Origin: Nemertoderma westbladi
Lineage: Eukaryota > Animalia > Xenacoelomorpha
Assembly (NCBI GenBank): GCA_032718475.1
Contig: JAUCBJ010002189.1
Location: 1 to 42,898 of the forward strand
Direction of reading: 5' to 3'
Length of the DNA stretch: 42,898 bases
The notes beneath the pieces were generated by a model, which made no database searches, was not told the DNA's origin, and worked only from the letters and a program-made list of their open reading frames with translations. A program made the translations under genes and the position numbers. Shown one piece after another: positions 1,485 through 27,061 of this stretch (position 1 is its first letter; each line of letters starts with the position of its first letter).

Positions 1485-1627
1485 TATATTTTAATTCTGT
1501 ATATTACATCCAAACAATTGGATAACATTTGTTGCACGTACAATATGTTAAAAGATAATTATTTAAGAAAAAATATTTTGAAAGCACTGTAGGACGGGAA
1601 TATGTTAGTAAAATTAAGTGGATCAGT

Positions 1628-2968: not shown

Positions 2969-3220
2969 ATGTCTTCTAATACACCTGCGCCTGTAATAAG
3001 ACATACATTTAATACTGTCGATAATCTTACTTGTATTGTTATTGGTAACACTATTTATTGTCCTTCACAACCTAATTTTAAAATAGACATTTCTGAACAA
3101 GCAAGAAAAGAACTACAATCTATTGATATTTTCGGTGAGGTAGATTCTACTAATTACCTTTTAGATTACAAAGAAGAACATGATTTAGATAAATTCACAA
3201 TTTTTATCAATGTCAGATAA
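2969..3220 (+). CDS. Maverick small orphan ORF (MSSNTPAP..., ~83 aa)
   Basis: First ORF inside left TIR, ATG preceded by (AAT)n run; no recognisable motif. Confidence 0.45.
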   Translation: MSSNTPAPVIRHTFNTVDNLTCIVIGNTIYCPSQPNFKIDISEQARKELQSIDIFGEVDSTNYLLDYKEEHDLDKFTIFINVR

Positions 3221-3395
3221 CTTTATTGTTATTACTCAATATAGTGGTAATATAGTGAGCAATAAATGTGAAAAGTTTGAGATCAAATTAGATCGTAAAA
3301 ATGCTTATGAAATTATGGCTTTGTTTATTGTTATTATTTCGAAAGAAACCCTTGTAACCACTGATGAAACTGATGACAATGAAGATGATTCTTGA
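3210..3395 (+). CDS. Maverick small orphan ORF with acidic tail
   Basis: Overlaps the stop of the previous ORF in virus-like compact fashion; may be a frameshifted continuation. Confidence 0.3.
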   Translation: MSDNFIVITQYSGNIVSNKCEKFEIKLDRKNAYEIMALFIVIISKETLVTTDETDDNEDDS

Positions 3396-3462: not shown

Positions 3463-4164
3463 ATGGATATATTAATAAACACAAATTGTAGTATTTGTTA
3501 TTCTAATTTAAAACATCTTGATTGTTACATATGTGTTAATAAGCATGGAACTTGCGTGACATGTATTGATCAACATGTTGAAATTAATGATTGTACTAAA
3601 ATTTGTCCAATTTGTAGAGTACAGACACTTTGCAGAGTAAACAAGTTATATAATCCATATTATTGGAAAGAGCTGCGGAATTCTATTTACATTTCAGGAA
3701 AAAGTAACGAACCTAACGAGTTATTTACAATATCACAGAATATTTTTTATCGATATATAGTGAAAAAAGGCGGCTTTATGGTACCATGGTTGTTTGATGA
3801 AGAACATAAAAATATCACAGTAAAATTAAATAAGAATTTACGTAGTTTTGATATTTACTTTAAGACATATAAAGATGAATCATCTTCAAGAGGTATAAAA
3901 CCGAAAAAGTATTATTTGAAACTTGATGAAGGTATTCTTTGCAATGATTTGTGTATGAGAGTAATTCGCACTTTGACGGAGCATACTCTAAGTCATATTT
4001 CCAGTACTAAATGCTATGGACGTGGTATAGAACGTAAATGTCAAACTAAGAAGTATAACAAATTTATACGATGTCACCGCTATCTCACTTGGTATGGACA
4101 TTATTTAAATCGAAAACAATGTCTGTTGATTGCAGGTATACGATTACACAATCTTTTCAAATAA
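3463..4164 (+). CDS. RING-finger (C3HC4-like) protein, putative E3 ubiquitin ligase
   Basis: CSIC...CVNKHGTCVTC...CPICR at N-terminus; intact 233-aa ORF. Confidence 0.75.
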   Translation: MDILINTNCSICYSNLKHLDCYICVNKHGTCVTCIDQHVEINDCTKICPICRVQTLCRVNKLYNPYYWKELRNSIYISGKSNEPNELFTISQNIFYRYIVKKGGFMVPWLFDEEHKNITVKLNKNLRSFDIYFKTYKDESSSRGIKPKKYYLKLDEGILCNDLCMRVIRTLTEHTLSHISSTKCYGRGIERKCQTKKYNKFIRCHRYLTWYGHYLNRKQCLLIAGIRLHNLFK

Positions 4165-4350: not shown

Positions 4351-5034
4351 ATGGCTGACTTTAATTCAGGTCCATATAATTTAAACTTTCAAATGGGAAC
4401 GAGTATGATAATTTCTGGCCCGTCTGGTTCCGGAAAGTCTACATTTGTTGGTAATTTAATTAAACACAAGAATGGCTGCTTCAACGAAACCCCCTTACGA
4501 GTATTGTATTGTTATGGGAGCAATCCCCTGACTATTCCTGGTATTACTCACCTTTATAAAGGTTTGCCTGAAAATATAGATAGTTTAGTGAATAGTCGAG
4601 ATTTATTAATTATAGATGATTTATTAACAGAAACTGAGTCTAGTACAGCCTTAACTGTATTGTTTACTAAGGTTGCTTATCATTCCAATATATTTATTTG
4701 TTTCATAACGCTAAACATGTTTTACGGTGGGAAGCATAACCGCACAAGATCAATTAATAGCCATACCTTAGTATTAATGAAAAATCCGCGAGACAGTTTA
4801 TCGGTTTTAAATTTCGCGAAGCAGATGTTACCAGGGCAGACCAAATTTTTAGTAGATTCCTATCAAGATGCGACTATTGAACCATTTTTGCATTTCTTAA
4901 TTGATTTACGACAGGAAACACCCAAACATTTAAGATTTAGATCGGATATATTTCGTAATCATAATTGTTACATTAAAAATTACATTGACTATAAACGTAG
5001 CGAAAATAATAATAATAATAATAATAATAATTAA
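4351..5034 (+). CDS. ATP: A32/FtsK-HerA-family DNA packaging ATPase
   Basis: Walker A GPSGSGKST, Walker B LLIIDDL, RSINSH...MKNPRD motifs typical of Polinton ATPases. Confidence 0.93.
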   Translation: MADFNSGPYNLNFQMGTSMIISGPSGSGKSTFVGNLIKHKNGCFNETPLRVLYCYGSNPLTIPGITHLYKGLPENIDSLVNSRDLLIIDDLLTETESSTALTVLFTKVAYHSNIFICFITLNMFYGGKHNRTRSINSHTLVLMKNPRDSLSVLNFAKQMLPGQTKFLVDSYQDATIEPFLHFLIDLRQETPKHLRFRSDIFRNHNCYIKNYIDYKRSENNNNNNNNN

Positions 5035-5067: not shown

Positions 5068-5444
5068 ATGGATAGACTTGTGCAGAAATATCGTAACGAA
5101 TTGGAATTTGCGCTACCCCTCAACAAAGAACTTATTTTATTAACCATACCGCGAGTAATGAATTAATACGGCTCATTGTAAATACCGCATTAAATGTTCT
5201 AAAAGGTAACGTACAATTGACCCCTCATTCATTTAGAAATATTCGTCGTTATAAAAAGGTATTAAAATCGCTCAACCGCAAAACAAAAAATATATCAAGT
5301 TACAGAAAAAAGTTAACCAATCAATCTGGAGGCATACTACCGTTACTAATACCCTTACTCGGCATTGGTGCAAAACTCGCCGCGAGCGCTGGTGCCGCCG
5401 CCGCTGGAGCGGCTATTGCGAAAAAAATTAACCGCAGATGGTAA
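5068..5444 (+). CDS. Small basic virion core/membrane-active precursor (Maverick PW-like), 5' part frameshifted
   Basis: ELIRLIVNTALNVLKGNVQLT...RRYKKVL...NQSGG|ILPLLIPLLG; QxGG protease-type site then hydrophobic/amphipathic peptide. Confidence 0.65.
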
Positions 5445-5446
5445 TA

Positions 5447-5680
5447 ATGGTTAAAACGGGGGTAACATTTAGAAAATTATATTTAGTATCGAGTAAACCG
5501 TTAGCTACTGATTTAAAACCTCAAGATATACCTAGAGTAAATACTACAAAAAGAAAACCCTTCAAAACATCAACTTCAAAGAAAAAAAAAAATTTCAGCT
5601 GTTTTTACAGTGATGCCCTTTATAAGAGATTTGAATATACATATTACTTGCGGTTGTCGAAAAGATGCCACGCAAGATGA
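5447..5680 (+). pseudogene. Short remnant ORF between core protein and integrase
   Basis: Starts M...RKLYLV, resembling the N-terminus of the ORF found at this position in many Mavericks; short and probably frameshifted at the poly-A run near 5582. Confidence 0.3.
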
Positions 5681-5700
5681 AACCGATTTTAAGCTGAAGC

Positions 5701-6755
5701 TTAGACAAAAAACTGTTAAGAATTTATTTAGATCCTTCATCGCCTGCAGGTTTTGCAAGTATCGCAAAATTAGCAAAAGCCGCAAACATCAAACCATCTC
5801 AAGCTCAGAAATGGTTGAGCGGGCAAAAGACATACTCCCTTCACGCACCACGTAGACATCGTTATCCAACATCTAAAATATTTACGGGAGGGTTAAAAGA
5901 TATATATATGATAGATCTGATGGATATGCAGCAATATAAATCACAAAATAATAATTATAACTATATATTAACATGAGTATTGATGCCTTTAGCCGGTTTG
6001 CTTTTGCCTATGGTATGAAGACAAAAACAGGTATTGAAATTATTAGTATATTGCAAAAAATATTCCAGAAAGGTAAACCAAACAGAATCGCGACTGATCA
6101 AGGGTCTGAGTTTCTAAATAAATCTGTAAGAAAATATTTAGATACTATTGGTGTACGTTATTACGTAATGTACTCTGTGAATAAGGCAGCTATTGTCGAG
6201 AGATTCAATAGAACATTAAATACAAAGATGTTCAAAATTTTCACGCAACGGGGAAATAATGTTTGGATAAAAATTTTACCGAAGCTTATTTTTGCTTATA
6301 ATAGGTCATTTCATAGGACTATACAAATGACTCCCATTGAAGTTAATAAATTTAATGAAACTGAATTAATTAATAGATTATATGGGAAATATAGACAGAT
6401 TAATCACAAGAAAATAAAATTTCAAGTTGGAGATACAGTACGTTTATCTATCGCGCGTACTGCTTTTGCTAAAGGCTATCGAGAACAATGGACACGTGAA
6501 TTATTTATTATTCATCGGGTCAGATTGGATAGAGTACCAGCGGTAATGTTCGATATTAAGGACAGAGCCGGTGCTATAATAAATGGTTCATTTTATTCAT
6601 ACGAACTCCAAAAGGTCCACCCGAGTAGTAATATTTATCTTCCGATTGACAAAAATATTGGCAAACTTAAAGAACGTGTGCGCAATGGGAAAAAAGAATA
6701 TTTAGTCCGATTCATTGGATCCAAAAAACAGTCGTGGATACAGCATATTCAATAA
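5701..6755 (+). pseudogene. INT: Retroviral-like (rve, DDE) integrase with C-terminal chromo-like domain, frameshifted at ~5973
   Basis: Upstream frame IYLDPSSPAGF...KWLSGQKTYSLH...MIDLMDM (first D); downstream frame ATDQGSEF (second D), AAIVERFNRT (E), RNGKKEYLVRFIG..SWI. Confidence 0.92.
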
Positions 6756-6795: not shown

Positions 6796-7444
6796 GAATA
6801 ATGGTCACATATGACCGTGATTAATCAATATTAACTCGAATGATATTACTATACTATACTGTAAGTCTAATATCTATTGTTCATTCGCTTTAAATAAAGC
6901 CAGTAAAATATTGATCCCTCGCATATACTGTAGAAGCGGTAATGAACGCGGTGACAGATGTCTATAATTTAACATTATACAGTATGTATAAGGAGTCAAG
7001 TAGAGAGAGCTTATGCGAATAATGGTCACATATGATCGTAATTAATCAATATTAACTCGAATGATATTACTATACTATACTGTAAGTCTAATATCTATAG
7101 TTCATTCGCTTTAAATAAAGCAAGTAAAATATTGATCCCTCGCATATACTGTAGAAGCGGTAATGAACGCGGTGACAGATGTCTATAATTTAACATTATA
7201 CAGTATGTATAAGGAGTCAAGTAGAGAGAGCTTAAGCGAATAATGGTCACATATGATCGTAATTAATCAATATTAACTCGAATGATATTACTATGTTGTA
7301 AGTCTAATATCTATAGTTCATTCGCTTTAAATATTGATCTCTCGTATATACTGTAGAAGCGGTATTGAACGTGGTCACAGATGTCTATAGTTTAACATTA
7401 TACAGTATACAGTATGTACAATGGAGTCAAGCAGAGAGAGCTTA
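6796..7444. repeat. Three tandem ~221-bp units between integrase and capsid genes
   Basis: GAATAATGGTCACATATGA starts at 6796, 7017 and 7238. Confidence 0.93.
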
Positions 7445-7457: not shown

Positions 7458-8312
7458 ATGGCTGTAGATACATATATCACTCTAGTTTCAGATAGCTCAT
7501 TAAACACATACCCCAATAATAACCCTAGCGAGTTTACTGTTGATTTAGCCGAAGAATTATATATTGGTCCAAAAGCTAAAATTGGACTCGCCGAGATTCA
7601 ATACCAAGCAACGTACAGTAATATTACTCTGCAAACTCAAATCTCGCTGTCAATCGGGGTAGATGCAAAAGATGCCAAATTATACAGTTTATTTCCTGGT
7701 ATGCATAGCTCTATTCAAGTCATTATTGATGATATAAATAAACTGTTTAATTCTGAAGCGAAATATAGAGATTTCGAATTCATTTTTAATACAAATAATT
7801 CTAGAATTAAATTTAAATTTCCTAAAAAGTTGAAAAAAATACAATTAAGTCTACGTGGTGATTTAATACAAATTCTAGGCTTAAAACAGTTATTGGATCA
7901 GAATCATCCAGATATTCCGAATTGGGATATAGTGGATGAATTAAGCAATATAGAACAGCCGATATTAATTTTAAATTATAGTGGACCAAAAATTTCGGAA
8001 ATTGGGATTTTAGATTTTCCAAATCCTACGAATATTACTCGTAATAAAGATACAATCTTCATATATACAGATATTATTAAGAGCTCATTTGTTGGTGATG
8101 CTTTAGCTCCGCTCTTAAGAACCTGTCCTTTAACACACTTAAATCAAAAATATATTAATCACGAATACAAGAGCATTTGCTATTACCCGTTGTTGAATAA
8201 AAAACTAAAAACAATCTTAATTACTTTACGTGACGGTCAAGGTGAATTAATTAATTTCGACAGTGGTCGCACTGTTATAACACTTAAGTTAATACGCGGT
8301 GGTGATGGATGA
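7458..8312 (+). CDS. Minor capsid protein (penton, single jelly-roll), copy 1
   Basis: YITLVSDSS..YPNN.PSEFTVDL, IGLAEIQY, IFIYTDII...VGD..APLLR, Y.PL...ITLRD..G..I.F. Confidence 0.85.
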   Translation: MAVDTYITLVSDSSLNTYPNNNPSEFTVDLAEELYIGPKAKIGLAEIQYQATYSNITLQTQISLSIGVDAKDAKLYSLFPGMHSSIQVIIDDINKLFNSEAKYRDFEFIFNTNNSRIKFKFPKKLKKIQLSLRGDLIQILGLKQLLDQNHPDIPNWDIVDELSNIEQPILILNYSGPKISEIGILDFPNPTNITRNKDTIFIYTDIIKSSFVGDALAPLLRTCPLTHLNQKYINHEYKSICYYPLLNKKLKTILITLRDGQGELINFDSGRTVITLKLIRGGDG

Positions 8313-9692: not shown

Positions 9693-10955
9693 ATGTCAAT
9701 TATTAAGGAATTAGATTTATTTTCTACACAGCCAATACAGACTGAATTTAAAGCAAAGCATTCATTATGAAACAATTAACCCGGTATCTAATCTCAGAAG
9801 CGAATCTAGGGAAGTCACGTTCCTTGTACCAAGATCCAATGAATTCTATACGAAACTGCAAGATGCGATATTAATTACAAAATGTACTGTATGGTGGGAT
9901 AGACGACTTGAAAACTCCCATATTTATATGTTGAATTACCCTTCTGGGACTATGTGGAGTGATATTAAAATAGACCTTAATGAGAAGCAGGTTGAAAATA
10001 GCAATAACCATTATTTCTACAAGTCGTACTTATCCAATTTACTATTTACAACATACGAATCTAAAAATGGGCTACTGGGGGCAGGCGGCTTTCGTCAGCC
10101 TTTATCCGAACACGGAAATGAAATTAATCCCGGCGCGCATCCTATTGACGATGCCTTTAGTAAACAAATGCAATTTTAAGTGGATTGACGATTGATTTTG
10201 ATACTGAAAGTAAAATAATACAACCCGGGTATGATTTAAGAATGCATTTTAGAAAAGTATCAAATTCGTTTATTTTTAAAATCACTCCAAACGCAAACGC
10301 TGTGACAAATCTTCGGCTAGAATTAGATGAAGTAAAGATCCTAATCCCTAGAATGGAGGTTAATCCAGTAATAGAAAGCAGTCACCTAAAAGGTTTAGAG
10401 AGTTACGATATTGAATATCAATTTCAAAAAAAAGAAGTTACTACATTTACTATTCCCGCTCAAACCACAAATTACACCCAAACAAACATATTTGATGGTA
10501 AAAAACCCAAATTAGTTATTATCGGTTTTATAACAAATAATGCATATTCGGGAGAATTAACTAGTAATCCCTTGAAATTTGAACATTTTAACCTTAGACG
10601 CGCGGAACTGATTGTAGACGGTCTTCCAGTAGGTGGTGTAATATATGAGCCTCATTTTACAGATGGAACATACATTTTTGAGTATACACAATTAATGAAG
10701 AACATTAATACATATATTAACGGTTACGGAGGTAATAATATAGACCATGAAACCTACTTAGGTAATTGCCCACTCATATCCTGGGACCTAACTGCCGACG
10801 TCTATGTTAGAGATCCTCAGCCATCGATATATACTAACGGACAATTCAAATTAAGATTTGCCGAACCGTTGGTTGAGACCATAAATGTAATCGTTTTTAA
10901 TATTTATGATCAATCATTAAGTTTAAATAGCAGGAAAGAAATACATATCGATTAA
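9693..10955 (+). pseudogene. MCP: Major capsid protein (double jelly-roll), several frameshifts/deletions
   Basis: N-terminal KELDLFSTQPIQT; YFYKSYLSNLL; IF.G..PK.VIIGF..N.AYSG....NP..F.HF; WDLT; LRFAEPL. Confidence 0.88.
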
Positions 10956-10981: not shown

Positions 10982-11410
10982 ATGTTTCCAGTGGGTGGTC
11001 ACTATTTGGGCGCGTTTCCATCTAATAAATTACCTAAATTAGATAATAATAAGCGAAGAGACTATGGGTTAATAGTAAATACTGATAAAGAGCATCTGCC
11101 AGGTGTTCATTGGGTGGCTATATATATACGAGATAATGAAGCTGAATTATTTAATTCGTTTGGACCAAAATATCCAAACAGATGTATCGAAAAATGGCTT
11201 GAGAAAAATTCAGCAAGGTGGTGTACTACCCGCAAACAATTTCAAGACCCTAGAAGGACTACATGCGGGTTATACTGTCTTTATTACTTGGTAAATCGAA
11301 TTCACACAAACTATCCAATGAGAGCGTTTAGAAATAATGTGGAAATAAATGAAATAATATTATATAAATGGCTTGTTAATTATTATAAAATAAACCAACA
11401 AGCGTTATAA
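10982..11410 (+). CDS. PRO: Adenain/Ulp1-like cysteine maturation protease
   Basis: IVNTD....PGVHWVAI, ELFNSFG (usual D is N), Q....TTCGLYC. Confidence 0.9.
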   Translation: MFPVGGHYLGAFPSNKLPKLDNNKRRDYGLIVNTDKEHLPGVHWVAIYIRDNEAELFNSFGPKYPNRCIEKWLEKNSARWCTTRKQFQDPRRTTCGLYCLYYLVNRIHTNYPMRAFRNNVEINEIILYKWLVNYYKINQQAL

Positions 11411-11454: not shown

Positions 11455-12027
11455 ATGGATAATATTATTTTTGTTGATTTTCAATATTATAAGATAGACA
11501 ATAAGGAATATCTGGTAGTATTTAAAGAATTTGCTATATTCGATTCTAAATACAGTAAAACTAATATAAAGACGTTTTTAATTAAAGGACCTCCTAATAT
11601 TAAGTTATCGGCATTAGATAAAGCCCACGTAAACAATTTACACGATATTACATCGCATTTACCTTGGGATTACGGTGACATTTCGCAAGATGACTTTAAA
11701 AAGTATATGAAGAGACAATTAAAAAATAAATATAATATATATGTATTCGGGTTGATGAAAGCCGCAATATTAAATACCCAACTTGATGTTTACGCTCTAA
11801 AATTGATGAACAAATTGGGAATATTTCGACTATATTACAATTATTTAACTCCATGCTCCTTCCATGATAAATTAACTACTGTAGAAGATAAATGTAGTTT
11901 TCACAAAGATGGTGATAGCTGCTGGAATTACTGCTCAGCGAAAAGGATTGGAGGGTATGTAACAAAGCGATTAACTGAGACAGGTGATAAACAGAAAGAA
12001 ATAACTGTGGTGAATGATGTACAGTAG
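11455..12027 (+). CDS. DEDD-like (RNase H fold) exonuclease-domain protein, possibly inactive
   Basis: IIFVDFQ...FKEFAI, LPWDYGD, IYVFG..K and Cys/His cluster at the C-terminus. Confidence 0.5.
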   Translation: MDNIIFVDFQYYKIDNKEYLVVFKEFAIFDSKYSKTNIKTFLIKGPPNIKLSALDKAHVNNLHDITSHLPWDYGDISQDDFKKYMKRQLKNKYNIYVFGLMKAAILNTQLDVYALKLMNKLGIFRLYYNYLTPCSFHDKLTTVEDKCSFHKDGDSCWNYCSAKRIGGYVTKRLTETGDKQKEITVVNDVQ

Positions 12028-12053: not shown

Positions 12054-13227
12054 TGTAAAAGCTTTTGCGGATCTAGCTAGTCATTTTCCCCGCAAAGTAC
12101 TCTGTAGGTGTTTTAGCAGACATAAAAAGCCGTTTTCTTACTGTGTAGGTGTTTTAGTGGACATAAAAAGCAATTTTTCTGTATGTGTACTTTAGCGGAC
12201 ATAACTAGCGATTTTATGCCACAATACGCCAAAATACTCTTGATACAGTGTAGTTCAGATGACGACATCTATCAGCTGATATGTCCACGTAGAGCTTTTT
12301 CTTTGTTCTTTGTTCGGCTCGACCAATCAGAGCGATTTTCATTTTATTTGCACAGAAGCCTCTGGAAAATCGCGCAATGCATTATGGTCTTTGTTTACCT
12401 TTTTTCCTGAGCCCAGAACATCGGCTGTGGAATTATTCTGTGTTTCAGACTTTAGCAAAACATTAGAACGGCTTTGATCATAGAAACGTATAACTGTTAT
12501 TCTATCTAACGAACTCATAACAAACCTGGTCACATACAAACACCGCATTATTTTACTGCTATTTACTGTCGGTTATTAATTGTATCAGTTGATGGAATGT
12601 TGATATATTTGGAGAATATTGATAAATAATCATAAAACCCCAATCTTCTTGATATACTAAAGGTTAGAGAGACCGGTTACATATAGCAATTGCGACTTAC
12701 ATTATAGTGGTTTTGGAGTGAATTGAATGCTAATTCATAGACCCTACATGTGTCAGTTGCTGTTGTCCTTATATATGATTAAAATTAGTGAAGGTCGGCA
12801 GATCAGTGTGCAGCATTGTGCGGTAGTGTGCATGAGTGTGATAGATAACAAAGCATTTCCTAAAGAATGCGCTTTATACGTAAATCATAAGCCATCCCGT
12901 TGTGTTTAGTGTAAGTCATAACTCTGTTTACATACTTAGAGTGCCACGTCCTAAAGGAACTGTTAATATTTCCCGAAAGTGAATAATATTTGTCAGAGAT
13001 TATATATTAACGATCAATCGAATAGTAAAGTAGGCCTACACCGCAATAAGGTCAGAGCATCCGAATCCAGTCTCCCTTAACCGTGGGTGAATGATCGCGC
13101 ATAGGCTGGCTTCGGCTAATGTAACTTTATGTGTATCAAATACTTGTTATAGGCTAAAGTCGATTTATAACCTAGAAGACACCTAAATTTGTCAGGTTAA
13201 ACTGCTAAAGGTCTAAAAGCGCGAACA
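12054..13227 (+). mobile_element. Solo LTR copy A (1174 bp)
   Basis: TGTAAAAG...GCGAACA termini; 5-bp TSD TGATG (12049-12053, 13228-13232); homologous to 17101-18299; strand is relative only. Confidence 0.88.
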
Positions 13228-13577: not shown

Positions 13578-14503
13578 CCTATCCACAATAGTCATCCACT
13601 TTATCAGTACCGGTAGTATTTTACTCTTCCAACACTGTAGTCGCGGTCTACCGGTGTCAGTACAGCAGTAATCTGATGCAATAGCATTTGTTTTTTTCAC
13701 CTATAAGGATACTGCAGTCTACCCAAACCTTGATTAGCATACTGCAGTCATGACCTGGATTGCACGCGTGGGTCTCACATACAGGGATTAGATCACCTAG
13801 CCAAACAATACAGTACTGCAGTACTTTCACTGTTGTTGTAACAGTATATTCAGATAGAACATACTGATTTCCTTCTATTAGCATTGTACTGCAGTACCGG
13901 TACTACAGTATTAATGTAACAGTACCTGCAGTAACAAACTAAGCCAATGTATACAATATCGTGTGCCAGTTACAATCAGATGTGTGCGTAGTCCGCCACA
14001 CTACGGGGATGTAGTCAACCTCATAGTCTGCCTCGCAGCCCCTATCCACAACTGTCATCCACTTTATCAGTACCGGTAGTGTTTTACTCTTCCAACACTG
14101 TAGTCGCGGTCTACCAGTATCAGTACAGCAGTAATCTGATGCAATAGCATTTGTTTTTTTTCACCTATAAGGATACTGCAGTCTACCCGAACCTTGATTA
14201 GCATACTGCAGTCATGACCTGGATTGCACGCATGGGTCTCACATACAGGGATTAGATCACCTACCCAAACAATACAGTACTGCAGTACTTTCACTGTTGT
14301 TGTAACAGTATAGTCAGATAGAGCATACTGATTTCCTTCTATTAGCATTGTACTGCAGTACCGGTACTACAGTATTAATGTAACAGTACCTGCAGTAACA
14401 AACTAAGCCAATGTATACAATATCGTGAGCCAGTTACAATAAGATGTGTGCGCAGTCAGCCACACTACGGGGATGTAGTCAACCTCACAGCCAGCCTCGC
14501 AGC
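13578..14503. repeat. Two tandem 463-bp units in the central non-coding region of the Maverick
   Basis: CCTATCCACAA starts at 13578 and 14041; near-identical spurious ORFs 13657 and 14067. Confidence 0.93.
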
Positions 14504-14610: not shown

Positions 14611-15155
14611 CTAATTACCAATATATTCTACACCTAAAGTCACAACACCAAACATTAATAAATAATTAACCAGTTTACTAAATATAGGGTAATAAATGTG
14701 AAATTTGCTAGGTGAACACATTAAAGTACATTTACCGGTATGAAAGCAGCAAATGACTACGGTATTATTTATTCTTATTTTGCAATTATTAAAAATTTCA
14801 GGTTCATATATAACTTGAAGTTGTACATTATCAAAGACAACATAAAACCCGGTATTGTTTATCAATAACCTATAGACTACAGAGTTAATACTAAAAATAT
14901 AAGTACATAAATTAACAGATTTTAAAATCAAATTAATACTTGTTTTATCAAATATATGCTTTTTTACTTTTTGGAAATTATACTTACTACCTAATAATGA
15001 AATACGACCATTTTTAAATATTAATAATGTGGCACCAAATATCTTATATATAAACTGATTTGGTTTGAGTATGTGTTTACCAGATAATTGATTTTTTTAT
15101 TCTTTCAAATTAATCGCTGACAACTTACATTCTTATTAACTATCTGATAGTTCAT
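14611..15155 (-). pseudogene. TATA-binding-protein (TBP)-like ORF, frameshifted near its 5' end
   Basis: Open frame from ~15095 reads GATLLIFKNGRISLLGSK, then VIYEPEIF...VICCFHTGKCTL, matching the two TBP repeats (ALIFSSGK.V.TGAK; SYEPELF...LIFVSGK); ATG at 15155 overlaps the PolB end. Confidence 0.65.
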
Positions 15156-18100
15156 TGTTTGGCTCCCGATAAATAGGTATATTTTTTTTTTTAATTGGTT
15201 TTACAACCTTTGTTTGATAGTGACCCCAGGGAAGTGAATGATTTTTATTAACCCAAAAAAGTTTATCGTCAAATGCGCTGAGAGCAAACATATATCGTGC
15301 TACAGTGTACACTTTGTGTAATTGACTCTGAAATTGATGCGTTTCCTTGGAAATTTCTTCGTTATCCTTATATGCTCTTAAATAATCTTCGTGGCAAATT
15401 TTTTTATCCACGACAGCTCTTGTTATTCCTTTCGCCCGTCGTATATTCGTTTCATTGAATTCCAAAATTGAATATAATTTTGGTCTTAAAAATACTGCTT
15501 GTTTAATTTCACGTGAGGCTAGTTCATCTTTACAGTAATAGAGTCTGGATTTATTTTTATCGCTGTAGAGAGGGTGATCCTTGGGGTAATTAGAGGTATC
15601 TAGAATATTATTTTTAATTAATGCTTTTAAGAAATTACTCTGCGATGTATTATAATAACAACCTATTAATGAGTCTGTATCGGATGCTACAATTTCAATT
15701 CGGCAGTTTAATTCTTTCTCAATAGGTAGTAATTATCATAGTACAGCTCATACATATCAAGTTTCGCTAAATCCAAGACAGTACTACCTACATAGACTGG
15801 TTTATCTAGTGTCACGCTGTCTTTCACTAATAAGTGTCCCGATAAGGAATTGTTATAAATCATGAAATTTTCGTGATTTATACGTTTCACCAATTGATCG
15901 CATTTCTCATTGCTATTAGCGATACGGAAATTACAGCGATCTTGTATCTTCTCAATGGATTTACCAAATAACGAGCAGCTTTGCAACAGCTGTTTCAATA
16001 TAAGTTTTTGCTAGTCGTCTTTGATTAATATTAAAATCTATATAGGGTTTAAATTGATGGAAAGAATACAATTTATGGAGCTTAGTAACAATTAAACCTT
16101 GTTTTATATAAAATTTTAACAGTTTTAAATTTACATGATAGAATTCTTTATCAAATTGTGTCAACATAAGTTTTGGTGCACACATCTTATACTTGCTATT
16201 AGTACCTCTTTGTTTACATACTATATTAAATTGATCTTTCATATATGGTGAAAGCATTGTCTCATTTATACTTAAATGTTCTGGAGCTAAGGGTAGTTCT
16301 AATGTACGATCATGAATATCTTTGGGATATTTCAAATCGCAAATTAAGAAAAACCCAATATCCCCTTCAGTATCAAGATTTGTTAAATAGTTTATTAGTT
16401 CTTCTGGAGCAGCATTCTCTAAATATGTAACGTTGACTTGTTCAAAACCTGAAACAGGTAGCTTTTTACTTAAATGACCCGAATACAAGGAATTAAAATC
16501 TATATTGAAAATATGACACTCTTCCTTGCTTGGATCATAATTATCAGTATCTGGTATATTTGATTCTATGTAATGCTTTCGACAGAATGAAACCCCTCCT
16601 CTAATAAATGCTTCAAAATCTCTATATGTTTGGTAATCTTTTATTAATGCTAACTTACATTTATTGTATTTCAGGGCGCAATCATAAGTGAAAGCTGCAA
16701 TACTGCAATAATAAACTACTTCTAATTCGTAGTTTTGTCTACATACTCTCCTAAAGTTCTCAAATATATCAGCGAGGAGACAAACATCGAGTTTTAAGTA
16801 TGCTAAAAGATAATCCTTGAGATTTGAACAGTCAAACTGACTCCATGATGCGTTGGCAAAACTATATTCCTCGGGTGTACAGGTATTTTGTGTTAATTTA
16901 CTATAAAATTTGTCTATTGATGGTAATTTCGAATCATTGAATTTATTTAAATCTGTCAGATACTCGTAGGGAAATATACCTTTTCGTTTAATTGTTGCAT
17001 TATTTAAATTCGGATAAAAATATTTCATATGCTGTTCAGTAATTGGTAGAACTTATGTTATATCCTCGCTGTCTATATCCTTTGTTGAACAATCAACTAA
17101 TGTTCGCGCTTTCAGACCTTTAGCAGTTTAACCTGCCAAATTTAGATGTCTTCTAGATTATAAATCGACTTTAGCCTATGACGAGTATTTGATACACTAC
17201 ATTAGCCGAAGCCAGTCTATGCGCGACCATTCACCCGCTGGATATACCCGGGAGACTGGATTCGGAAGCTTTGACCTTATTGCGGTGTAGGCCTACTGTA
17301 TTATTCGACTGATCGTTAATATATAATTTCTGACAAATATTATTCACTTTCGGGAAATATTAACAGTTCCTTTAGGACGTGGCGCTCTAAATATGTAGAC
17401 AGAGTTATGACTTATACTAGACACAACGGGATGGCTATGGATTCACGTATAAAGCGCATTCTTTAGTAGATGCTTTGTTATCAGTCACAATCATGCACAC
17501 TACCGCACAATGCTGCATACCGATCTGCCGACCTTCACTAATTTTAGTCACATATAAAGAGAACAGCAACCGACTCATGAAGTGCCTATGAAATAGCATT
17601 AGATTCACTCCAAAACCACTTTAATGTAAGTTGCAATTGTTATATGTAACCGGTCTCTTACCTTCAGTATATCAAGAAGATTGGGGGTTTTATAATTATT
17701 TATCGATATTATCCAATATAATAATACTCCATCAACTGATATAATTAATAACCGACAGTAAATAGCAGTAAAAATTGCGGTGTTTGTAGTTGACAATATG
17801 ATTTGCATTGATAGGATTAGGATATGTGGTGTGGTTTGGTTTGATATGATATGATAACAGTTATACGTTTCTATGATCAAGCCTACTAATGTTTGGCTAA
17901 AGCCTGAAACCACAGAGATTCCAAAGCCGGTCTTCTGGCATCAGGAAAAAAGGTAAACATTGACCCATAATGCATTGCGCGATTTCCCGGAGGTTTCTGG
18001 ACAAATAACATGAGAATCGCTCTGATTGGTTGTCCGAACAAAGAAACAAAGGAAAAGCTACACGTGTACATATCAGCTGTTAGCTGTCGTCATAGTAACT

Positions 18101-20340
18101 ACACTGTGTCAAGAGGATTTTAGCGTATTGCGACATAAAATTGCTAGTTATGTCCGCTAAAGTACACATACAGAAGAAATGGCTTTTTATGTCCACTAAA
18201 ACACCGGTACAGTAAGGAAACGGCTTTTTATGTCCGTTAAACCAACTACAGAGTACTTTGCGGGGAAAATAACCAGCTAATTCCGCAAAAGCTTTTACAA
18301 CTAAAGTACTTAGGGAAAAGGATAAAAATTGATATGTGTCTAAGACACGTAGCTCGATTTTTGTTTTTTCATCTTTCACCGGTATATGCATACTCAGTGA
18401 AATATACCTTTCAGAATTTTTAGGGATTACCTTTATATCCCAATCGGAATATTGGTTATTACAAAACCCAACTTGCAAAAGAAAATGCAAATCGTAGTGA
18501 TTGCAGTTGTGTGCAGCGAGTATATACATGTGTCGTTTCAATGATAAAGAGCGGTTACATGTGTTACAAGCGGCTGCTATATAGTTACCAGTAATATGTG
18601 AGTGATGTTTGTTTTTCTCAGACTTATCCTTAAATAAAACATTGCAATAAAAGCAAGTTTTAGCTTTCCAAAAACTTAACTTATCTACATCATTAAGTAT
18701 CATCTTTTCTCTTGTGTTAGTTTCTGACCACTTATATAATTGGGTGATGTCATTATATACAGAGTCTAAAAAGTCTTGAATACAGTTGTTATCTATTGTT
18801 TTTGTAAAGGTTTTCAAATAAAATTTTGATGGATTGATTAATTCGCTACTAGGGACAACTAAATAACTTACAGTGCATGGAATATGATTCTGAATAAATT
18901 TACTGTTGCTGGCTGGCTCCAAAATAGATTCTATGTCAAAATATATTACAAACAATGCTGGTAATGTTCTGTCTAAATTTCTAAAGCTAATGTGAGTTCT
19001 TTTTTCAGACGGTAGCTTCTCAACTTGACTTTTTCCTTGATAACAAGTAAGACGGTGACATTCTAGAACATCCTTGCTGTAGAAATGTAACAAACACCGT
19101 TCACAATATTTCCTACATCCAATATGCTTACCTCTTGTATTCATCAAGAGATTCAAGTTAGTTATGCAAACATAATGTGATTGTTTTGATTTATTCTTAT
19201 TTTTTACAAGTAATATATTCAATAACTCTTTATCTGGAGTGATTTTACTAAATGGTGCCTGTCTTAATATAGATACTCGATTGTTGTCGTAGAGTAATAA
19301 ATTAATTATATATGCTGAATTCTGTTTTTCAAAAAGTTTAATTGCAAGCTGCCATTCTGTTGGATAATCTTTGTTCCCATTGTCAAAAATAAAATGATTC
19401 ATGTAATCTGTGTACTGCGAAGTACGATATTTGTTTATCTTCACTTTGCTGCTAAACTTTGTGGCTATAATAGCCCATTTGAAACAGTCATTATCAGCCG
19501 TTTGTATATTTATAACACATTTTTTAACTGATAGAGCCTTAGGTAACTCCATATAACCGTGACCTTTATATTCCAGTGACTTAGACTTGGATTCAGCTAC
19601 TTTAATTTCCACTCTTAATAAAGATTTAACGCGCCACCCTGAGCCACGAGTGTTAAACATGGCTATTTTTTGCATTAATTTTTCTAGTACATACTCAAAC
19701 CAAATATAGAAACTTTCATGTGAATCTACGGTATTAACTGCACCACATGAAGAACTAAAATAGAAAGTTTCTTCTTGGTCACCCTCTGAAAAATGTGATC
19801 GATACATGAGTATATTCACACCTAGCCAGGGTCTAAGTACATTCATTTCGCTAAGTTTTCCTAATAATAAATTTTCAATATGAGGCAGAATTTTTAGTAT
19901 TGATGAATGAATATCTGGGAAATCTTCATCATTCGGAAGATTGTAAACATAGATTTCTAAACGGTTATCGTGTGCGGCTCGTTCGATGCTAAAAATTGAT
20001 GGACCTTGACCAGATTTCAGTCTTTTTCTAGATGTGACAGTATTGTTTTGGTTCCGTCGTGGTGGTCTAACATGATAATAATGTTGGTGACAGTCGTGAC
20101 ATAAATAATTATCATATAAATATACTCTTTATTACAAGTAGGGCAAGTTTTTTCATACATGCAAAGCTTCATTTCTTTACAACCCGTAGTTGATTCATGT
20201 CGTTTACAAATTTCTTCGCGTGGAGTTGAAACATGACAATTAAAACAAGAATAAACATGAAAATGCGACTTCAGATGAGATAAATAGTTATGTTAAGAAA
20301 TTTGAAGTGGACAAAATGGATATTTCAATTGTTTATCCAT
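15136..20340 (-). pseudogene. POLB: Protein-primed family B DNA polymerase with N-terminal Zn fingers and HNH/EndoVII insert; disrupted by stops, frameshifts and a solo LTR
   Basis: VINIQTADNDCFKWAI; ExoI YFDIES; ExoII HNCNHYD; KGIFPYEY; ExoIII LKLDVCLLADIFE; IRGG; DFNSLY; AKLL..S.FGK; SDTDS (~15670); LSAFDDK. Confidence 0.95.
17101..18299 (-). mobile_element. Solo LTR copy B (1199 bp) inserted in PolB
   Basis: Reverse complement of copy A with the same termini; 5-bp TSD ACTAA (17096-17100, 18300-18304); removal restores the PolB frame (SLSTLV-DCSTK...MKYFYP) with one stop. Confidence 0.9.
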
Positions 20341-20885: not shown

Positions 20886-21428
20886 TCAATCTGATACTGC
20901 TTTTATATGTTCCTTGTTGTAATCTGCTACCTCTTCACTTGCTTTTGTAACTTTTCTTTTCTTTGTAGGTATAGAATCATTGTTGGGATTGGAAGATGTT
21001 CGAGATGTAGATCTGCGCTTTCTATCACTCGATGTCTCTTCGATGTATGTCTTTGGATTAAATGTGGATGAAACAGTTTCTGGAAATGACTTATTAACCT
21101 TAAACTTCCATGTTGGTTGATATAGAATCGCGAAACCGTCTGCTATATCAGTTGTTGATGAAACCTTTTCCATCATATCGTTGAGAAACTCTATATGTGG
21201 TATGTCTTTATCATAATGTAACTGTAAATATTTGCTTTCCTTGTCTGTAATAATTACTTTTTTTTCTTGTACATTTATTTTTACTTTAAGTCGGTTAGAT
21301 AAAGCTTTATCGCTCGTGTCTAGCTCTGAAAAGACACCTTCGTTACTAATTTCATAATTCCATTCATACCACAATGAATTTACTTCCGATGCTGTTAAAC
21401 CCGTTATAATACCTAAGACCAATAGCAT
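20886..21428 (-). CDS. Maverick orphan ORF with basic NLS-like, Ser-rich C-terminus
   Basis: 180-aa ORF co-directional with PolB; RKRR and KKRK motifs. Confidence 0.55.
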   Translation of the reverse strand: MLLVLGIITGLTASEVNSLWYEWNYEISNEGVFSELDTSDKALSNRLKVKINVQEKKVIITDKESKYLQLHYDKDIPHIEFLNDMMEKVSSTTDIADGFAILYQPTWKFKVNKSFPETVSSTFNPKTYIEETSSDRKRRSTSRTSSNPNNDSIPTKKRKVTKASEEVADYNKEHIKAVSD

Positions 21429-21436
21429 CAGAATAT

Positions 21437-21931
21437 CTAGCTGAAATCTCCCATAGTCCCATATAAGCTGTTTGTTCCTTTATATTTGCTTACAAAACCA
21501 ACAAAAGATGGGTTGGTTAAATTAACAACAGAATACTGACTTATTCTTTCGAGTGGTGGTGATAAAAATTCTAATATTTTTGTCTTACTCTGAAGCAATA
21601 AATTAATGAGTGATTTGTTTAGAATTTGACATTTGTCTTGCTTCTGAATATACACGTTTTCAGTAATAACACAGTTGGAAATATTTAAATTTCCTCTTAT
21701 AAATTCTATATTAGGATAAATATTACCTCTTGAAACTGATGATTCCTTTTGTCGGTTGATTAATATTTCTAAGGTGTCTAGAAGGTAGAGTGTATCCCGG
21801 TAAGAGAAGCATGTTGTTACATTGCTATCGCTTGAGTGTAATATAAAGTACTTGCCATAAACAATACTACAGGTATATTTATTACATGTAAATTTCCAAG
21901 TATTGTTTGAACTTTTTTTAAATAAATCCAT
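21437..21931 (-). CDS. Maverick orphan ORF (may be the 5' part of the same gene as 20886..21428)
   Basis: 164-aa ORF in AT-rich DNA, 8 bp from the next ORF, different frame. Confidence 0.5.
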   Translation of the reverse strand: MDLFKKSSNNTWKFTCNKYTCSIVYGKYFILHSSDSNVTTCFSYRDTLYLLDTLEILINRQKESSVSRGNIYPNIEFIRGNLNISNCVITENVYIQKQDKCQILNKSLINLLLQSKTKILEFLSPPLERISQYSVVNLTNPSFVGFVSKYKGTNSLYGTMGDFS

Positions 21932-22292
21932 AATTAGAATGAAAACTATTTTGAAAAATAAAAACTAAATAAATGATTATTAGAATGTAAAACTTCGGTT
22001 TATATGGTTGCTTTATTACGTGTACAGCTAAAATTATTACATTAGCGTGAGTTAGAGAGTGAAATAGCAGTAACGAGTAACAGATGCAACGTAAACAATG
22101 CTAGTCCTATCATTCTAACTTATATTCAACTTAGTTGACCGACCAGTCACATATATACAACGATAAAAGAAATAGATTATTATTAATAGTCGAATTAATG
22201 TATTCTATGCTATAGTAATTATGTTAAGGAACTAGAAGCTATTTATAAACATCTGCTACCAGTGTTGAAGATGAAGAATTCAATGGCTATGG

Positions 22293-22350
22293 TATAACTC
22301 AGTTATTTATTGCCTTTTTCTCTCGTGGTTGGATGGAAGAGTGAGTGGAG
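22293..22350. repeat. Extra direct copy of the inner end of the right TIR
   Basis: TATAACTCAG.TATTTAT.GCCTTTTTCTCTCG.GGTTGGATGGAAGAGTGAGTGG also at 22594-22650. Confidence 0.8.
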
Positions 22351-22593
22351 AATTGTGGTAAAACACTAGGGTACAGCAACGTGGACAAGTAGCGGGTGGG
22401 TGGGTGGATAGGAAATCATTGAGTTGACAACAATCAATCAATAACAAACAACACTAAAGAGAGAGAGAGGGAGAGAAAAAAGTGAAAGGAAGAGTAACCA
22501 TCATAGCTACGGTAGGTATACGATAGGATGGTTAGGTTAGGCTACGTACTGTACAGTACAATATCATATCATATCATCGATTGAATATTTTGT

Positions 22594-23127
22594 TATAACT
22601 CAGATATTTATCGCCTTTTTCTCTCGAGGTTGGATGGAAGAGTGAGTGGTGAGTTGTGAGGAGTTATAACAGTCCCGAGTTCGAACCCAGTTGAATATTT
22701 TGTTATCTGAAAAATTGCGAAATTAAATTTAGTTACTGGTGAAAAATAGTAGAAGTTACCTGTAGACACTCGTAGCACCTGTAAAATAAAGGTTGGTGAA
22801 TATGAAAATACTGGTTGGTGAAAAATAGCGATTTGAAAAATAATAGAAGTTACACCCGAAGTAGACACCCGAGCACCTGTAAAATAAAGACACGCGATTG
22901 GAGGAAGGAGTAGCATTGGGTGACTAATAACGCCTCTAGCGGAATAAGTGGGAACTTGAGAAGTTACCATGGTTACGGTTGAAATGCTGGCATCTGATTG
23001 GTTGAAATAATAACGACTACTGGTAAAGGTTGAAATGTTGGGTTCTGATTGGAGGAAGGAGTAGAAATGGATGGTAATGCTAGGCTATGGGTGACCTTGA
23101 GCCAGTGTCATACAATTGTATACTACT
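22594..23127 (-). repeat. Right TIR of Maverick
   Basis: Reverse complement of 2142-2756, lacking one ~94-bp unit. Confidence 0.93.
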
Positions 23128-23133: not shown

Positions 23134-24460
23134 GTCAGCAACTCGGTTTGCTGCATAGAACTTGGTCGCAGCCGCTGCTTACCAGTAATGCTGCACATCT
23201 GCATCGGTACCCTGTCAGGCCATCGAGAACTATGTCTGTCACATTCGCTGCACCATCAATGGCGTTAAGAATATTCGCGGAGGTGCTGTATTTGCTAATA
23301 CCGCACCAAAGCTTATAATAGAATGCTCTAGTTCGGCGAACATGATCCAGCGTAGTAGTCTTACGGCGTCGTAGGCGTCTTCCTTTTGTACAAAAACCTC
23401 GCAGCCATATGTCACAGCTGGGTACACCACAGCTGTCCATAGACGTCTGGCTGACTCTAGGCTGAGATTGTTTATATCAATCCTCAGGGATAGGTTTATA
23501 CAACAGATAGGTATATTTTTTATATTGGTGATTATAATGAGCGCTGGGGCCGTTTTTCATTGAAAGAACAACCCCAAGATATTCAAAGCTGGTTTCAAAC
23601 TTTAATTGGATGACAGTTTGTTTGATGAGCAGTAGTCTTCTAGGATGTCTAAGGCATTCTTGACTTGCTCAATCGAGTATCCCGCAATGACAAGATCATC
23701 AGCATAGAGTAATATCATACAACCTGTTATGAGCAATACAGCCGGTAGAAGGTCAGATATGAATAAGCTAACTAACAATGGTGAAAGCTAATCTCCCTGG
23801 ACGAGGCCTATGCATTGCTGAATTGGTTCTAGAACGTAACTCCCAATAGCAATACAAACGAAATTTACCCCCAGCACCGGCCAGAGAGCAGCGGCGAATT
23901 TAGTGCTAACACCGAGGTTGTGAAGTTTGTTAATTAGATGAACCCGATGGACTGTGACGAATGCCTTCATAAAATCAGCAAAGACAAATAGACATGGCCA
24001 CCTGGTTCACTGTGGGCAGCTGCTATTGCTATTCTAGAATGCAGACTTTTAACCGCACCAATAGTTGATCTTCCACGACGAAAGCCATGCTGACAGTCAG
24101 GGATCTTTCCTAGCCTCTCCACCCAGCTGTAAAGCCGTGATGCCAGGAAGGCTGTATAAAATTTCAGTATACATGAAAGCAAAGCTATCCCTCGATATCG
24201 GTTCGGGTCGGATTTTGTGCCTTTCCCTTTGTAAAGAGGGATGATGTATGAGTAGCACCATGATTTCGGACAGGTGCCTAAGGAGAAACACATGCTGAAG
24301 AGTGTGAATAGGAATTGAAGGAGATGACCAAAGCCTTGTTTGGGTGCTTCATTGGACACACCATCTGGACCTGTCGATTTGTGGGACTTTTGGTTGGAAA
24401 CAGACACTGTCGCTTCCTCGGGAGTAATTGGGGCGTCCAAGTAATCATCCTTCTGTTCTG
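23134..24460 (-). mobile_element. Degenerate 5'-truncated non-LTR retrotransposon (RT domain), target of the Maverick insertion
   Basis: KSTGPDGV, IIPLYKGKG...YRGIALL, QHGFRRGRST, QGD, LYADDL (~23700). Confidence 0.9.
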
Positions 24461-24590
24461 AAAGATTAATTAAGTATGATTAATTAATTTAAGATAAATT
24501 AAAAATAACCTTTTATTATATATTTTAAGATCAATGCCTTTAATATAAATAATTAAAAATATATTTTAATATAATTAAATAAATATCCAG

Positions 24591-24887
24591 TGACTAAATA
24601 TATAAATACAATCATGTTTGGGCTTACCATCCTAATTTCGGCCAATGTGGTAGGCTTTTCGCTTGGTGGTATTTACATCAACAATTTCTGTACCAACCAG
24701 ACCCCATCTGGAGTTTCTACTAAAGCCACATCTTCCTACGACTGCAGCTTTGATTGCGAGAGGAATCATCAATGTCGGTCTTTCACCTTCACCGACAGAT
24801 GCCAGATATATGAAGAGGATTGTCTGGCAGATATGGTCAACTGGGATGTTGAAACTTTGGGGAGTCGATGGGTCAACAAGAACAAAG
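24591..24887 (+). CDS. Host gene exon: signal peptide plus PAN/Apple domain 1 (ATG at 24614)
   Basis: CAG acceptor at 24588-24590, GT donor at 24888; MFGLTILISANVVGFSLG; CSFDC.....CRSFTF...C; ends in phase 1. Confidence 0.75.
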
Positions 24888-25372
24888 GTTAAATGAATTA
24901 TTTAATTTAGAATATAACATATCGAATATATTGGTGTCCCATCAGTAGCATTTCATACATGATGATGCTTGCAATAGGGTGCAGAGCCAGCGAATTCACC
25001 AACATAGCGCCAACAGATCTCACGGACAGCCATTCACTTTCCCAGTGCATCCCTATTTTTTGACCTATCTAACCGGGGGGGGGGGGGGGGGGGGGGGGGT
25101 GGGGGGAATCTGCCCACACCATTATAAAAGCCGCTGGAATTTCTAATGGCTTAGAGATGTGGCCTTGAAACTTCTTAGCTTTTCCTCAAATTTATTCCTC
25201 ATTCGAATGAAAAAAAACCGTGACTCTAACCTTGTCCGTTTTTTTCATACAGGACCTTTCTCGCACCCATGTCAGGATTTTTGAAAAAATTAAAAATTAT
25301 AGAGAAAATTATAAAGTTTCCCAAAACATGTACCACTACGATGTACTACTGACTGACTGACTGACTGAATAC

Positions 25373-26965: not shown

Positions 26966-27061
26966 GAGGGGTTTAATATATATTTTTCATTTTTGTATCA
27001 ATTATATTTTTTATAGAAATTTTATATATATATAGGTTTTGTAATTAATCACTAAATAATT

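What the first reader, a model, noticed from the sequence alone, without database searches (positions are those of the whole stretch)
14611..15155. Maverick-encoded TATA-binding-protein-like gene coupled to PolB
Seen: the ORF track shows only the last 106 aa; extending the frame upstream gives KPNQFIYKIFGATLLIFKNGRISLLGSK (repeat 1) and VIYEPEIFNNCKIRINNTVVICCFHTGKCTL (repeat 2), with a frameshifted start MNYQIVNKNVSC..INLKE, about 180 codons in total. Established: the TBP core is ~180 aa of two repeats with IF.SGK...TG and YEPE.F motifs; TBP-like proteins occur in giant viruses and beta/gamma-herpesvirus late-gene systems but are not core Maverick genes. Inference: a ~19-kb virus carrying its own divergent promoter-recognition factor, to redirect host Pol II to viral AT-rich promoters or to compete with host TBP. 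Best candidate for an undescribed system; novelty is unverified.
Basis: partly seen in the sequence, partly recalled or inferred. Interest (0 to 1): 0.85.

Follow-up and report, generated by a model that had tools for sequence, protein, structure and literature searches.

The report
Decayed Maverick carries its own TBP
A decayed virus-like Maverick transposon carries a broken copy of a small, divergent TATA-binding-protein gene; sister copies show signs of selection on it and related elements carry similar genes, and the intact protein likely helped the host's transcription machinery switch on the element's own genes.

Summary
At 14611-15155 (-) lies a two-lobed TBP-like gene of about 180 codons, broken by one frameshift and one stop. 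The 161-residue open part passes Pfam's TBP cut-off (E 1.8e-7). It sits in a 21-kb Maverick with AGTAGT ends and a 6-bp target duplication. Sister copies differ from this copy at both breaks, and 23 of 37 listed differences fall on third codon positions, so the gene was under selection. Two of 110 polymerase-bearing contigs, mostly fragments, carry a TBP. One lies in this element's polymerase clade; the other also encodes TFIIB. Neither TBP sits directly behind the polymerase. The protein keeps both DNA-intercalating loop phenylalanines and both TFIIB-binding glutamates, and no viral TFIIB was found in this element. It most likely loaded host TFIIB and polymerase on the element's TATA promoters (about 50%). 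No private promoter box was found; ordinary TATAAA is mildly enriched (9 of 17 starts). The full saddle was not confirmed. A TBP label already appears on a Polinton-like virus map (Starrett 2021), and this scan found Maverick TBPs before on other DNA.

The parts
14611..15155 (-). TBP-like gene, about 180 codons, broken in this copy by one frameshift and one in-frame stop
14614..15096 (-). Open part of the gene, 161 aa: most of the N-lobe and the whole C-lobe
   Evidence: Pfam PF00352 E 1.8e-7; profile of relatives E 1.4e-7; model and fold searches
15097..15155 (-). Start and first strand/helix region of the N-lobe; holds the frameshift (about 15122-15114) and the in-frame stop (15099-15097)
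   Evidence: adding this piece with X at the breaks raises the profile score from 30.9 to 34.1 bits; other copies differ from the window at both places
15016..15018 (-). Phe27 of the open frame, N-lobe L5.1 equivalent (DNA-intercalating)
   Evidence: invariant in alignment A2; role from PMC7221094 passages
14791..14808 (-). C-lobe stirrup YEPExF with Glu98 and Glu100 (C.L3.2 and C.L3.4 equivalents, TFIIB contacts) and Phe102
   Evidence: role from PMC7221094 passages
14743..14745 (-). Phe118, C-lobe L5.1 equivalent
   Evidence: invariant in A2
15136..20340 (-). Protein-primed family B polymerase, in several frames and interrupted by a solo LTR; its last codons overlap the TBP start
   Evidence: tblastn with the L026 polymerase E 5e-96 and 5e-56; homologues with PF03175
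2142..2764 (+). Left terminal inverted repeat, begins AGTAGT; 6-bp target duplication outside
22285..23127 (-). Right terminal inverted repeat, ends ACTACT; the same 6-bp duplication follows
4351..5034 (+). Packaging ATPase
   Evidence: P-loop hits; tblastn with L026 and L106 ATPases E 3e-34 and 1e-21
5068..5444 (+). pX-like core protein gene, frameshifted (start inferred)
   Evidence: Adeno_PX E 0.0035, below cut-off
5665..6755 (+). Retroviral-type integrase, broken (start inferred)
   Evidence: rve E 3.7e-8
7458..8312 (+). Putative minor capsid protein
   Evidence: tblastn with a 565-aa L106 protein that I took for a penton, E 3e-11; no Pfam hit
9693..10955 (+). Putative major capsid protein, broken
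   Evidence: tblastn with the 444-aa L106 protein beside its protease, E 7e-24; no Pfam hit
10982..11410 (+). Adenain-type protease
   Evidence: Peptidase_C5 E 1.5e-5, above cut-off
17101..18299 (.). Solo-LTR-like insertion (TG...CA ends, 5-bp target duplication) inside the polymerase gene; absent from some other copies
   Evidence: joint 17093-18298 in all four runs

Best explanation
This is a real but now broken Maverick gene for a minimal two-lobed TATA-binding protein, and the intact protein likely bound TATA-type promoters of the element and likely recruited host TFIIB and RNA polymerase II to them. Shown: TBP family membership, location inside a bounded Maverick, selection on the reading frame among sister copies, both L5.1 phenylalanines and both stirrup glutamates. 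Inferred step 1: it is made together with the polymerase, because its start overlaps the polymerase's end and it has no TATAA in the 150 nt upstream. Inferred step 2: it binds and bends AT-rich promoter DNA. Inferred step 3: it hands over to host TFIIB through the acidic stirrup, since no viral TFIIB was found in this element. Inferred step 4: this boosts the capsid-module genes after replication starts. The copy in this window cannot do any of this.
For: Family: all 35 PDB hits of profile A2 are TBP chains or fusions, best E 4e-30; hhalign probability 98.5 against a near-canonical giant-virus TBP.

Fold: TBP ranks first in Foldseek-PDB and in VIA-wide.

Selection: 23 of 37 listed differences among other copies are at third positions (p 3e-4); 20 of 37 are synonymous against 25% expected (p 2e-4). 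A polymerase control gives 7 of 10.

Viral lineage: the open frame scores 24-33 bits against the best members of the L026 family (L026 itself 24.1) and 6.5-8.0 against L019 and two giant-virus TBPs. The polymerase tree groups window, L024 and L026 at SH-aLRT 97 (quick tree).

TFIIB side: YEPExF is in 73 of 81 family proteins. L019/L106 has Asn at the first glutamate and encodes its own TFIIB (PF00382 E 5e-11), which fits the co-variation described in PMC7221094.

Promoters: TATAAA lies upstream of 9 of 17 starts against 4.1 in shuffles (p 0.008), with 3 on the reverse strand.
Against: No element-specific box: no 6-, 7- or 8-mer beats the shuffled maximum (p 0.29, 0.90, 0.58). TATAAG is at 2 of 17 starts. 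TATAAA is not confined to capsid-module genes (5 of 10 against 4 of 7 other starts). Host TBP could read these boxes, so they do not call for a viral reader.

The model is moderate (pLDDT 64.9, pTM 0.42). No fold match reaches E 0.001 or Z 8, and TM-scores are about 0.3, so the saddle is not confirmed.

The N-lobe stirrup is shortened and its phenylalanine cannot be placed. Only 2 of 110 polymerase contigs showed a TBP, so it is no core gene. The same glutamate also binds the Pol III factors Brf1/2, so Pol II is not singled out. Several starts were inferred in decayed genes. The window's polymerase is a long branch in a quick tree.
Confidence: 0.5

Rival explanations
1. The protein is a decoy. 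It occupies host TATA boxes or soaks up host TFIIB/Brf through its acidic stirrup and so damps host transcription or an antiviral response.
For: The stirrup and loop phenylalanines are kept while much of the N-lobe is remodelled. No private promoter box was found. The gene is patchy, like an accessory gene.
Against: A Polinton with a side-by-side TBP and TFIIB pair (L106) points to a working initiation module in at least one lineage. Characterised viral TBP-like proteins serve viral transcription (PMC7498053 abstract; PMC12917281 passages).
Confidence: 0.2
2. It reads a private, non-standard promoter box on late genes, like the herpesvirus TATT system, and the box was missed here because this copy is decayed and starts are uncertain.
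For: Earlier AI notes of this scan report such boxes in other Maverick families (unchecked). The DNA-binding face differs from canonical TBP in the N-lobe.
Against: Tests on this element, L026 and L106 found no shared non-standard word among the patterns tried: TATAAG at 2 of 10 late starts (p 0.11), TATT not enriched. The de novo search on this element was not significant.
Confidence: 0.15
3. It is a replication aid: a DNA-bending protein that helps the protein-primed polymerase at the terminal repeats, which would explain its place behind PolB.
For: The start overlaps the end of the polymerase frame. Adenovirus origins use DNA-bending host transcription factors (recalled, no call).
Against: Adjacency to PolB is not conserved (0 of 50 loci). 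The TFIIB-binding glutamates are conserved across the family, which this role would not need.
Confidence: 0.1
4. It is a captured host TBP fragment that has decayed without ever serving the element.
For: The copy is broken, and single-sequence searches find no homologue.
Against: Third-position and synonymous excess among copies, other copies differing at both breaks, and much higher scores against a Polinton-linked family than against a near-canonical TBP.
Confidence: 0.05

Closest known systems
'TBP' gene label on MELD viruses with adintovirus-like PolB (Starrett et al. 2021, PMC8502044, Fig. 5 legend; passages and section 3.4 read, figure not visible)
   Same: A TBP-like gene in a Polinton-type element.
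   Different: There it is only a legend entry in a section on non-animal datasets; the text has no analysis. I could not see which genome bears the label or whether it is the same protein family.
Cellular TBP core (Pfam PF00352; PDB 7o4i_O, 1mp9, 1cdw)
   Same: Two lobes, L5.1 Phe in both, YEPExF stirrup, about 180 residues.
   Different: About 13-22% identity in fold alignments, shortened N-lobe stirrup and helix 2, no N-terminal extension, encoded by a mobile element.
TBP and TFIIB pairs of large DNA viruses (Ravarani et al. 2020, PMC7221094, passages read; poxvirus VITF-3, PMC12917281, passages read)
   Same: Virus-encoded two-lobed TBP-like protein that keeps the L5.1 Phe.
   Different: Those viruses nearly always encode their own TFIIB, and the first stirrup glutamate is only about 40% conserved. 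This 19-kb element keeps both glutamates, and no TFIIB or RNA polymerase gene was found in it. The relative L106 does follow the paired pattern.
Beta/gamma-herpesvirus TBP mimic (KSHV ORF24; PMC7498053, abstract read)
   Same: A virus that depends on host Pol II brings its own TBP-like promoter reader.
   Different: ORF24 binds Pol II directly through an extra N-terminal domain and works in a six-protein complex. This gene is a bare core with no such domain, and no TATT-type box was found.

Membership tests
TBP family (PF00352) | Profile score above the curated cut-off, two repeats | tested here: met
   31.3 bits against 22.9, two stretches
TBP family (PF00352) | L5.1 phenylalanine in both lobes | tested here: met
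   F27 and F118, invariant in 60 aligned sequences; definition
TBP family (PF00352) | C-lobe glutamates C.L3.2 and C.L3.4 for TFIIB | tested here: met
   E98 and E100
TBP family (PF00352) | Pseudo-symmetric saddle with a continuous ten-stranded sheet | tested here: inconclusive
   TBP ranks first, but TM is about 0.3 and the best Z is 7.8 over one lobe; the modelled open frame lacks the first strand
TBP family (PF00352) | Stirrup phenylalanine of the N-lobe (yeast F99, numbering recalled) | tested here: inconclusive
   The N-lobe stirrup is shortened and no Phe aligns securely; the C-lobe counterpart F102 is kept
Eukaryotic TBP | Basic patch on N-lobe helix 2 for TFIIA, Mot1, Brf | tested here: inconclusive
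   The helix is shorter but holds several lysines here; the L026 family has acidic and apolar residues there; register unsure
TBP family (PF00352) | Binds and bends TATA DNA | not testable with these tools
   needs bench assay
Maverick/Polinton | Terminal inverted repeats with AGTAGT ends and 6-bp target duplication | tested here: met
   end motif as in PMC8097293 passage
Maverick/Polinton | pPolB, integrase, packaging ATPase, protease, capsid genes | tested here: met
   the capsid genes rest on similarity to L106 proteins only
Herpesvirus ORF24-type TBP mimic | N-terminal Pol II-binding domain ahead of the TBP core | tested here: not met
   The gene is 181 positions, and the family profile aligns from position 13
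Herpesvirus ORF24-type TBP mimic | Distinct late-promoter box (TATT type) | tested here: not met
   TATT 8 of 10 against 7.1 expected; no de novo word significant
Orthogonal viral TBP-TFIIB pair | Own TFIIB-like gene in the same genome | tested here: inconclusive
   No hit in this element by Pfam or by the L106 TFIIB, but several ORFs are unassigned and the element is decayed; met in L106

The most novel reading that the evidence does not exclude
Mavericks run the smallest known viral takeover of transcription initiation, and lineages choose between modules. One lineage (this element, L026) carries a bare TBP that keeps the acidic stirrup and plugs into host TFIIB. Another (L106) carries its own TBP-TFIIB pair with an altered stirrup. 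A third (L027) carries a VLTF3-like factor instead. These 15-20 kb elements would then have a programmed early-to-late cascade, as infectious viruses do.
Probability: 0.35. Interest if true: 0.8.

Novelty: new variant of a known kind. Interest (0 to 1): 0.55.

Why it matters
How Mavericks control their capsid genes is open, and it bears on whether they are working viruses. A conserved, element-borne TBP gives a concrete, testable handle. It would also be a viral TBP in an element far smaller than the pox-, herpes- and giant viruses known to carry one. A bare 170-180 residue TBP, and the side-by-side TBP-TFIIB pair of L106, are simple models for how the initiation interface can be rewired. The value is tempered: the gene has been labelled once in print, the scan has noted it in other genomes, this copy is dead, and the mechanism is inferred.

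Tried and rejected
Single-sequence searches with the open frame found nothing: 0 of 15 candidates, 0 hits in 1.84 billion representatives, no viral contig, and only chance PDB hits. The single-sequence model was unusable (pLDDT 39.5). No whole genome is held. No RNA holder was listed, which is no evidence on expression.

The inverted repeat 12054-13227 / 17101-18299 first looked like an inversion around the gene. It is two separate solo-LTR-like insertions.

L104 is a giant-virus-type contig with a near-canonical TBP, not a Maverick (my reading of its ORFs). L105/L123 is a chance antisense match inside a long bacterial ORF and was dropped from all counts. Further scans with TBP queries added no new Polinton.

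A private promoter box was sought and not found. A test of whether TBP and VLTF3 exclude each other could not be run, because the VLTF3 seed found only itself. The 164-aa ORF gave no Atlas or Pfam hit. Rfam gave 0 matches over the element. No model of the L106 TBP-TFIIB pair was obtained, so binding is open. The careful polymerase tree did not finish; the quick tree is quoted.

Full report
OBSERVATION. Both quoted motifs lie in one open frame on the minus strand, 14614-15096, 161 aa. The ATG at 15155 is in another frame. The gene is broken by a frameshift between about 15122 and 15114 and by an in-frame stop at 15099-15097. The open frame matches Pfam TBP at E 1.8e-7, 31.3 bits against a cut-off of 22.9, in two stretches. 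The three listed top Atlas clusters are TBP at 0.94, with a recognition value below the tool's line, so that is weak support. Single-sequence searches found no relative.

THE ELEMENT. The gene lies in a Maverick at 2142-23127 with AGTAGT...ACTACT ends and a perfect 6-bp target duplication. The terminal repeats are 89-93% alike in their two main segments. It holds a packaging ATPase, integrase, protease, putative capsid genes and a protein-primed polymerase. Many of these are broken. Two solo-LTR-like insertions of 1.2 kb (86% alike, TG...CA ends, 5-bp duplications) sit at 12054-13227 and 17101-18299; the second interrupts the polymerase and is skipped by contigs in all four runs. Without them the element is 18.6 kb. 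The host looks like an animal from the surrounding LINE-like ORFs (inference; no genome is held).

THE GENE WAS UNDER SELECTION. Contigs from four public DNA runs (three studies, one species label) were laid on the gene: 370, 234, 114 and 5 records. At the stop, 10, 7, 5 and 2 contigs carry another letter and hold nearly all the depth. At the frameshift a length difference is listed in two runs. The breaks therefore look private to this copy. No record spans the whole stretch, so an intact copy is not shown. The table shows 40 of 71 places; 37 lie in the open frame and 3 upstream ones were left out. Of the 37, 23 are third positions (p 3e-4) and 20 are synonymous against 25% expected (p 2e-4). 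Caveats: the places are the best supported, several belong to one divergent subfamily, and each was scored alone. The last polymerase frame gives 7 of 10 third positions.

RELATIVES. A polymerase alignment fetched 20 viral and 80 metagenome loci, and a narrower one added 10 new contigs. Most are fragments: the first 100 have a median of 5.4 kb and 25 reach 10 kb. Two of the 110 carry a TBP. L026 has pPolB, integrase and ATPase, with TBP (E 3e-15) in front of the ATPase, 5.5 kb past the polymerase. L019/L106 has a split polymerase, integrase, a protease-like gene and an ATPase, with TBP (E 9e-14) beside a TFIIB gene (PF00382 E 5e-11). That contig lies in a giant-virus bin that has a second TBP on another contig, so its status is unsure. 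L026's TBP has 81 relatives, median length 167, 73 with YEPExF; their genomic context could not be seen. A profile of 52 of these sequences, without the window, finds the window's frame at 30.9 bits; shuffles reach 12.1. The window's protein scores 24-33 bits against the best of this family and 6.5-8.0 against L019 and two giant-virus TBPs. In a quick polymerase tree of 41 rows (loci of 7 kb or more with a segment of at least 220 residues), the window groups with L024 and L026 at SH-aLRT 97. It is a long branch, and the careful tree did not finish. L024 ends before the place where L026 has its TBP. Gene and polymerase thus agree, which suggests inheritance within one Maverick lineage. 'Coupled to PolB' is not general: 0 of 50 loci that reach at least 800 nt past the polymerase end show a TBP there, within the limited sensitivity of the profiles.

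FOLD AND RESIDUES. Profile A2 hits 35 PDB sequences, all TBP chains or fusions. The model built from A2 has pLDDT 64.9 and pTM 0.42. TBP ranks first in Foldseek-PDB (E 2e-3, TM 0.30) and VIA-wide (Z 7.8, 85 residues, near-tied with non-TBP chains). In the viral library the best named matches are giant-virus TBPs. None passes a strong threshold, so TBP-like lobes are supported and the saddle is not confirmed. Ravarani et al. 2020 (PMC7221094, passages) name the L5.1 Phe of each lobe as the key DNA contact and two C-lobe glutamates as the TFIIB contacts. They report that viral TBPs often lose the glutamates (about 40% kept) and nearly always come with a viral TFIIB. The window's protein keeps F27, F118, E98, E100 and F102; by my reading, some copies have Asp at 98. 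No TFIIB was found in this element or in the 18.2 of 23.0 kb seen of L026. L106 has Asn at the first glutamate and its own TFIIB. Three elements are too few to prove co-variation, but they fit it. The N-lobe stirrup and helix 2 are shortened.

PROMOTERS. Earlier AI notes suggested a private box such as TATAAG. Over 17 starts in this element, several of them inferred, TATAAG occurs at 2 and no 6- to 8-mer beats the shuffled maximum. Ordinary TATAAA, tested as a named pattern, occurs at 9 against 4.1 expected (p 0.008; 3 on the reverse strand). It is spread over capsid-module and other genes, and six patterns were tried. L026 showed no enrichment; L106 showed TATAWAW at 7 of 25 automatically called starts (p 0.007). 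The TBP gene itself has no TATAA in the 150 nt upstream and overlaps the polymerase end.

MECHANISM. Best reading, 0.5: a minimal viral TBP made along with the polymerase binds the element's TATA-type promoters and hands over to host TFIIB and Pol II. Family, location, selection and residues are shown; expression timing, DNA binding, partner and target genes are inferred. Rivals: decoy 0.2, private-box reader 0.15, replication aid 0.1, dead capture 0.05. Confidence that it is a genuine Maverick TBP-family gene is about 0.95.

PRIOR KNOWLEDGE. Starrett et al. [quoted passage not shown] 5 legend. The preprint has the same label (passages). Term searches inside PMC8097293, PMC10748475, PMC11161782 and bioRxiv 10.64898/2026.06.19.733378 gave 0 for TBP, TATA and TFIIB (their supplements were not searched and may bear on this). 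PMC7221094 has 0 mentions of polinton or transposon. Library searches (listings only) showed no study of a Maverick TBP; most subscription papers are outside the library. The herpesvirus mimic has an extra Pol II-binding domain (PMC7498053, abstract). The scan's index holds 37 findings with these words in at least 5 genomes; these are unchecked AI notes and not support.

VERDICT. A real, selected, lineage-linked TBP-like gene in a decayed Maverick. It is a new variant of a known kind, noted once in print without study. Interest 0.55.

Noticed in passing
L106:9876-11074 (same contig as L019): A Polinton-type contig in a giant-virus bin carries TBP and a TFIIB-like gene side by side and overlapping; its TBP has Asn at the first TFIIB-binding glutamate. 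A search for Polinton with TFIIB and TATA listed two papers, neither on this by title.
   Followed up: partly
L027:5447-6085: A Polinton-like contig without a detected TBP carries a VLTF3-like late transcription factor (PF04947 E 1e-16): a possible alternative module.
   Followed up: partly
window 12054-13227 and 17101-18299: Two solo-LTR-like insertions of one family, in opposite orientation, 86% alike, each with TG...CA ends and its own 5-bp target duplication.
   Followed up: yes
window 13578-14454: Tandem duplication of about 464 bp between the converging gene blocks, 96-97% alike, with Cys-rich short ORFs (weak EGF-like hits below cut-off).
   Followed up: no
window 6796-7408: 221-bp tandem repeats between integrase and the putative minor capsid gene.
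   Followed up: no
window 20886-21931 (-), 11455-12027 (+), 2969-3395 (+), 3463-4164 (+): Unassigned ORFs of the element (164, 180, 190, 83 and about 61 aa) and a RING-like ORF (E 0.039); any could be a partner of the TBP.
   Followed up: partly
L106:1705-6495: The polymerase is split over several ORFs with a dUTPase gene on the opposite strand inside it; introns or insertions are possible.
   Followed up: no
L026:11783-14128: KilA-N and PLA2-like accessory genes between polymerase and TBP.
   Followed up: no
window 14714-15113: Some contigs match the gene at only about 83-85% and then diverge upstream: a second, more distant Maverick subfamily with the same gene appears to exist in this species.
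   Followed up: no
window 990-1496: Array of 15-bp repeats in both orientations upstream of the element.
   Followed up: no
window 23900-40900: Several LINE-like reverse-transcriptase ORFs flank the element on the right, including a two-ORF element at 25373-29899 (read by eye).
   Followed up: no
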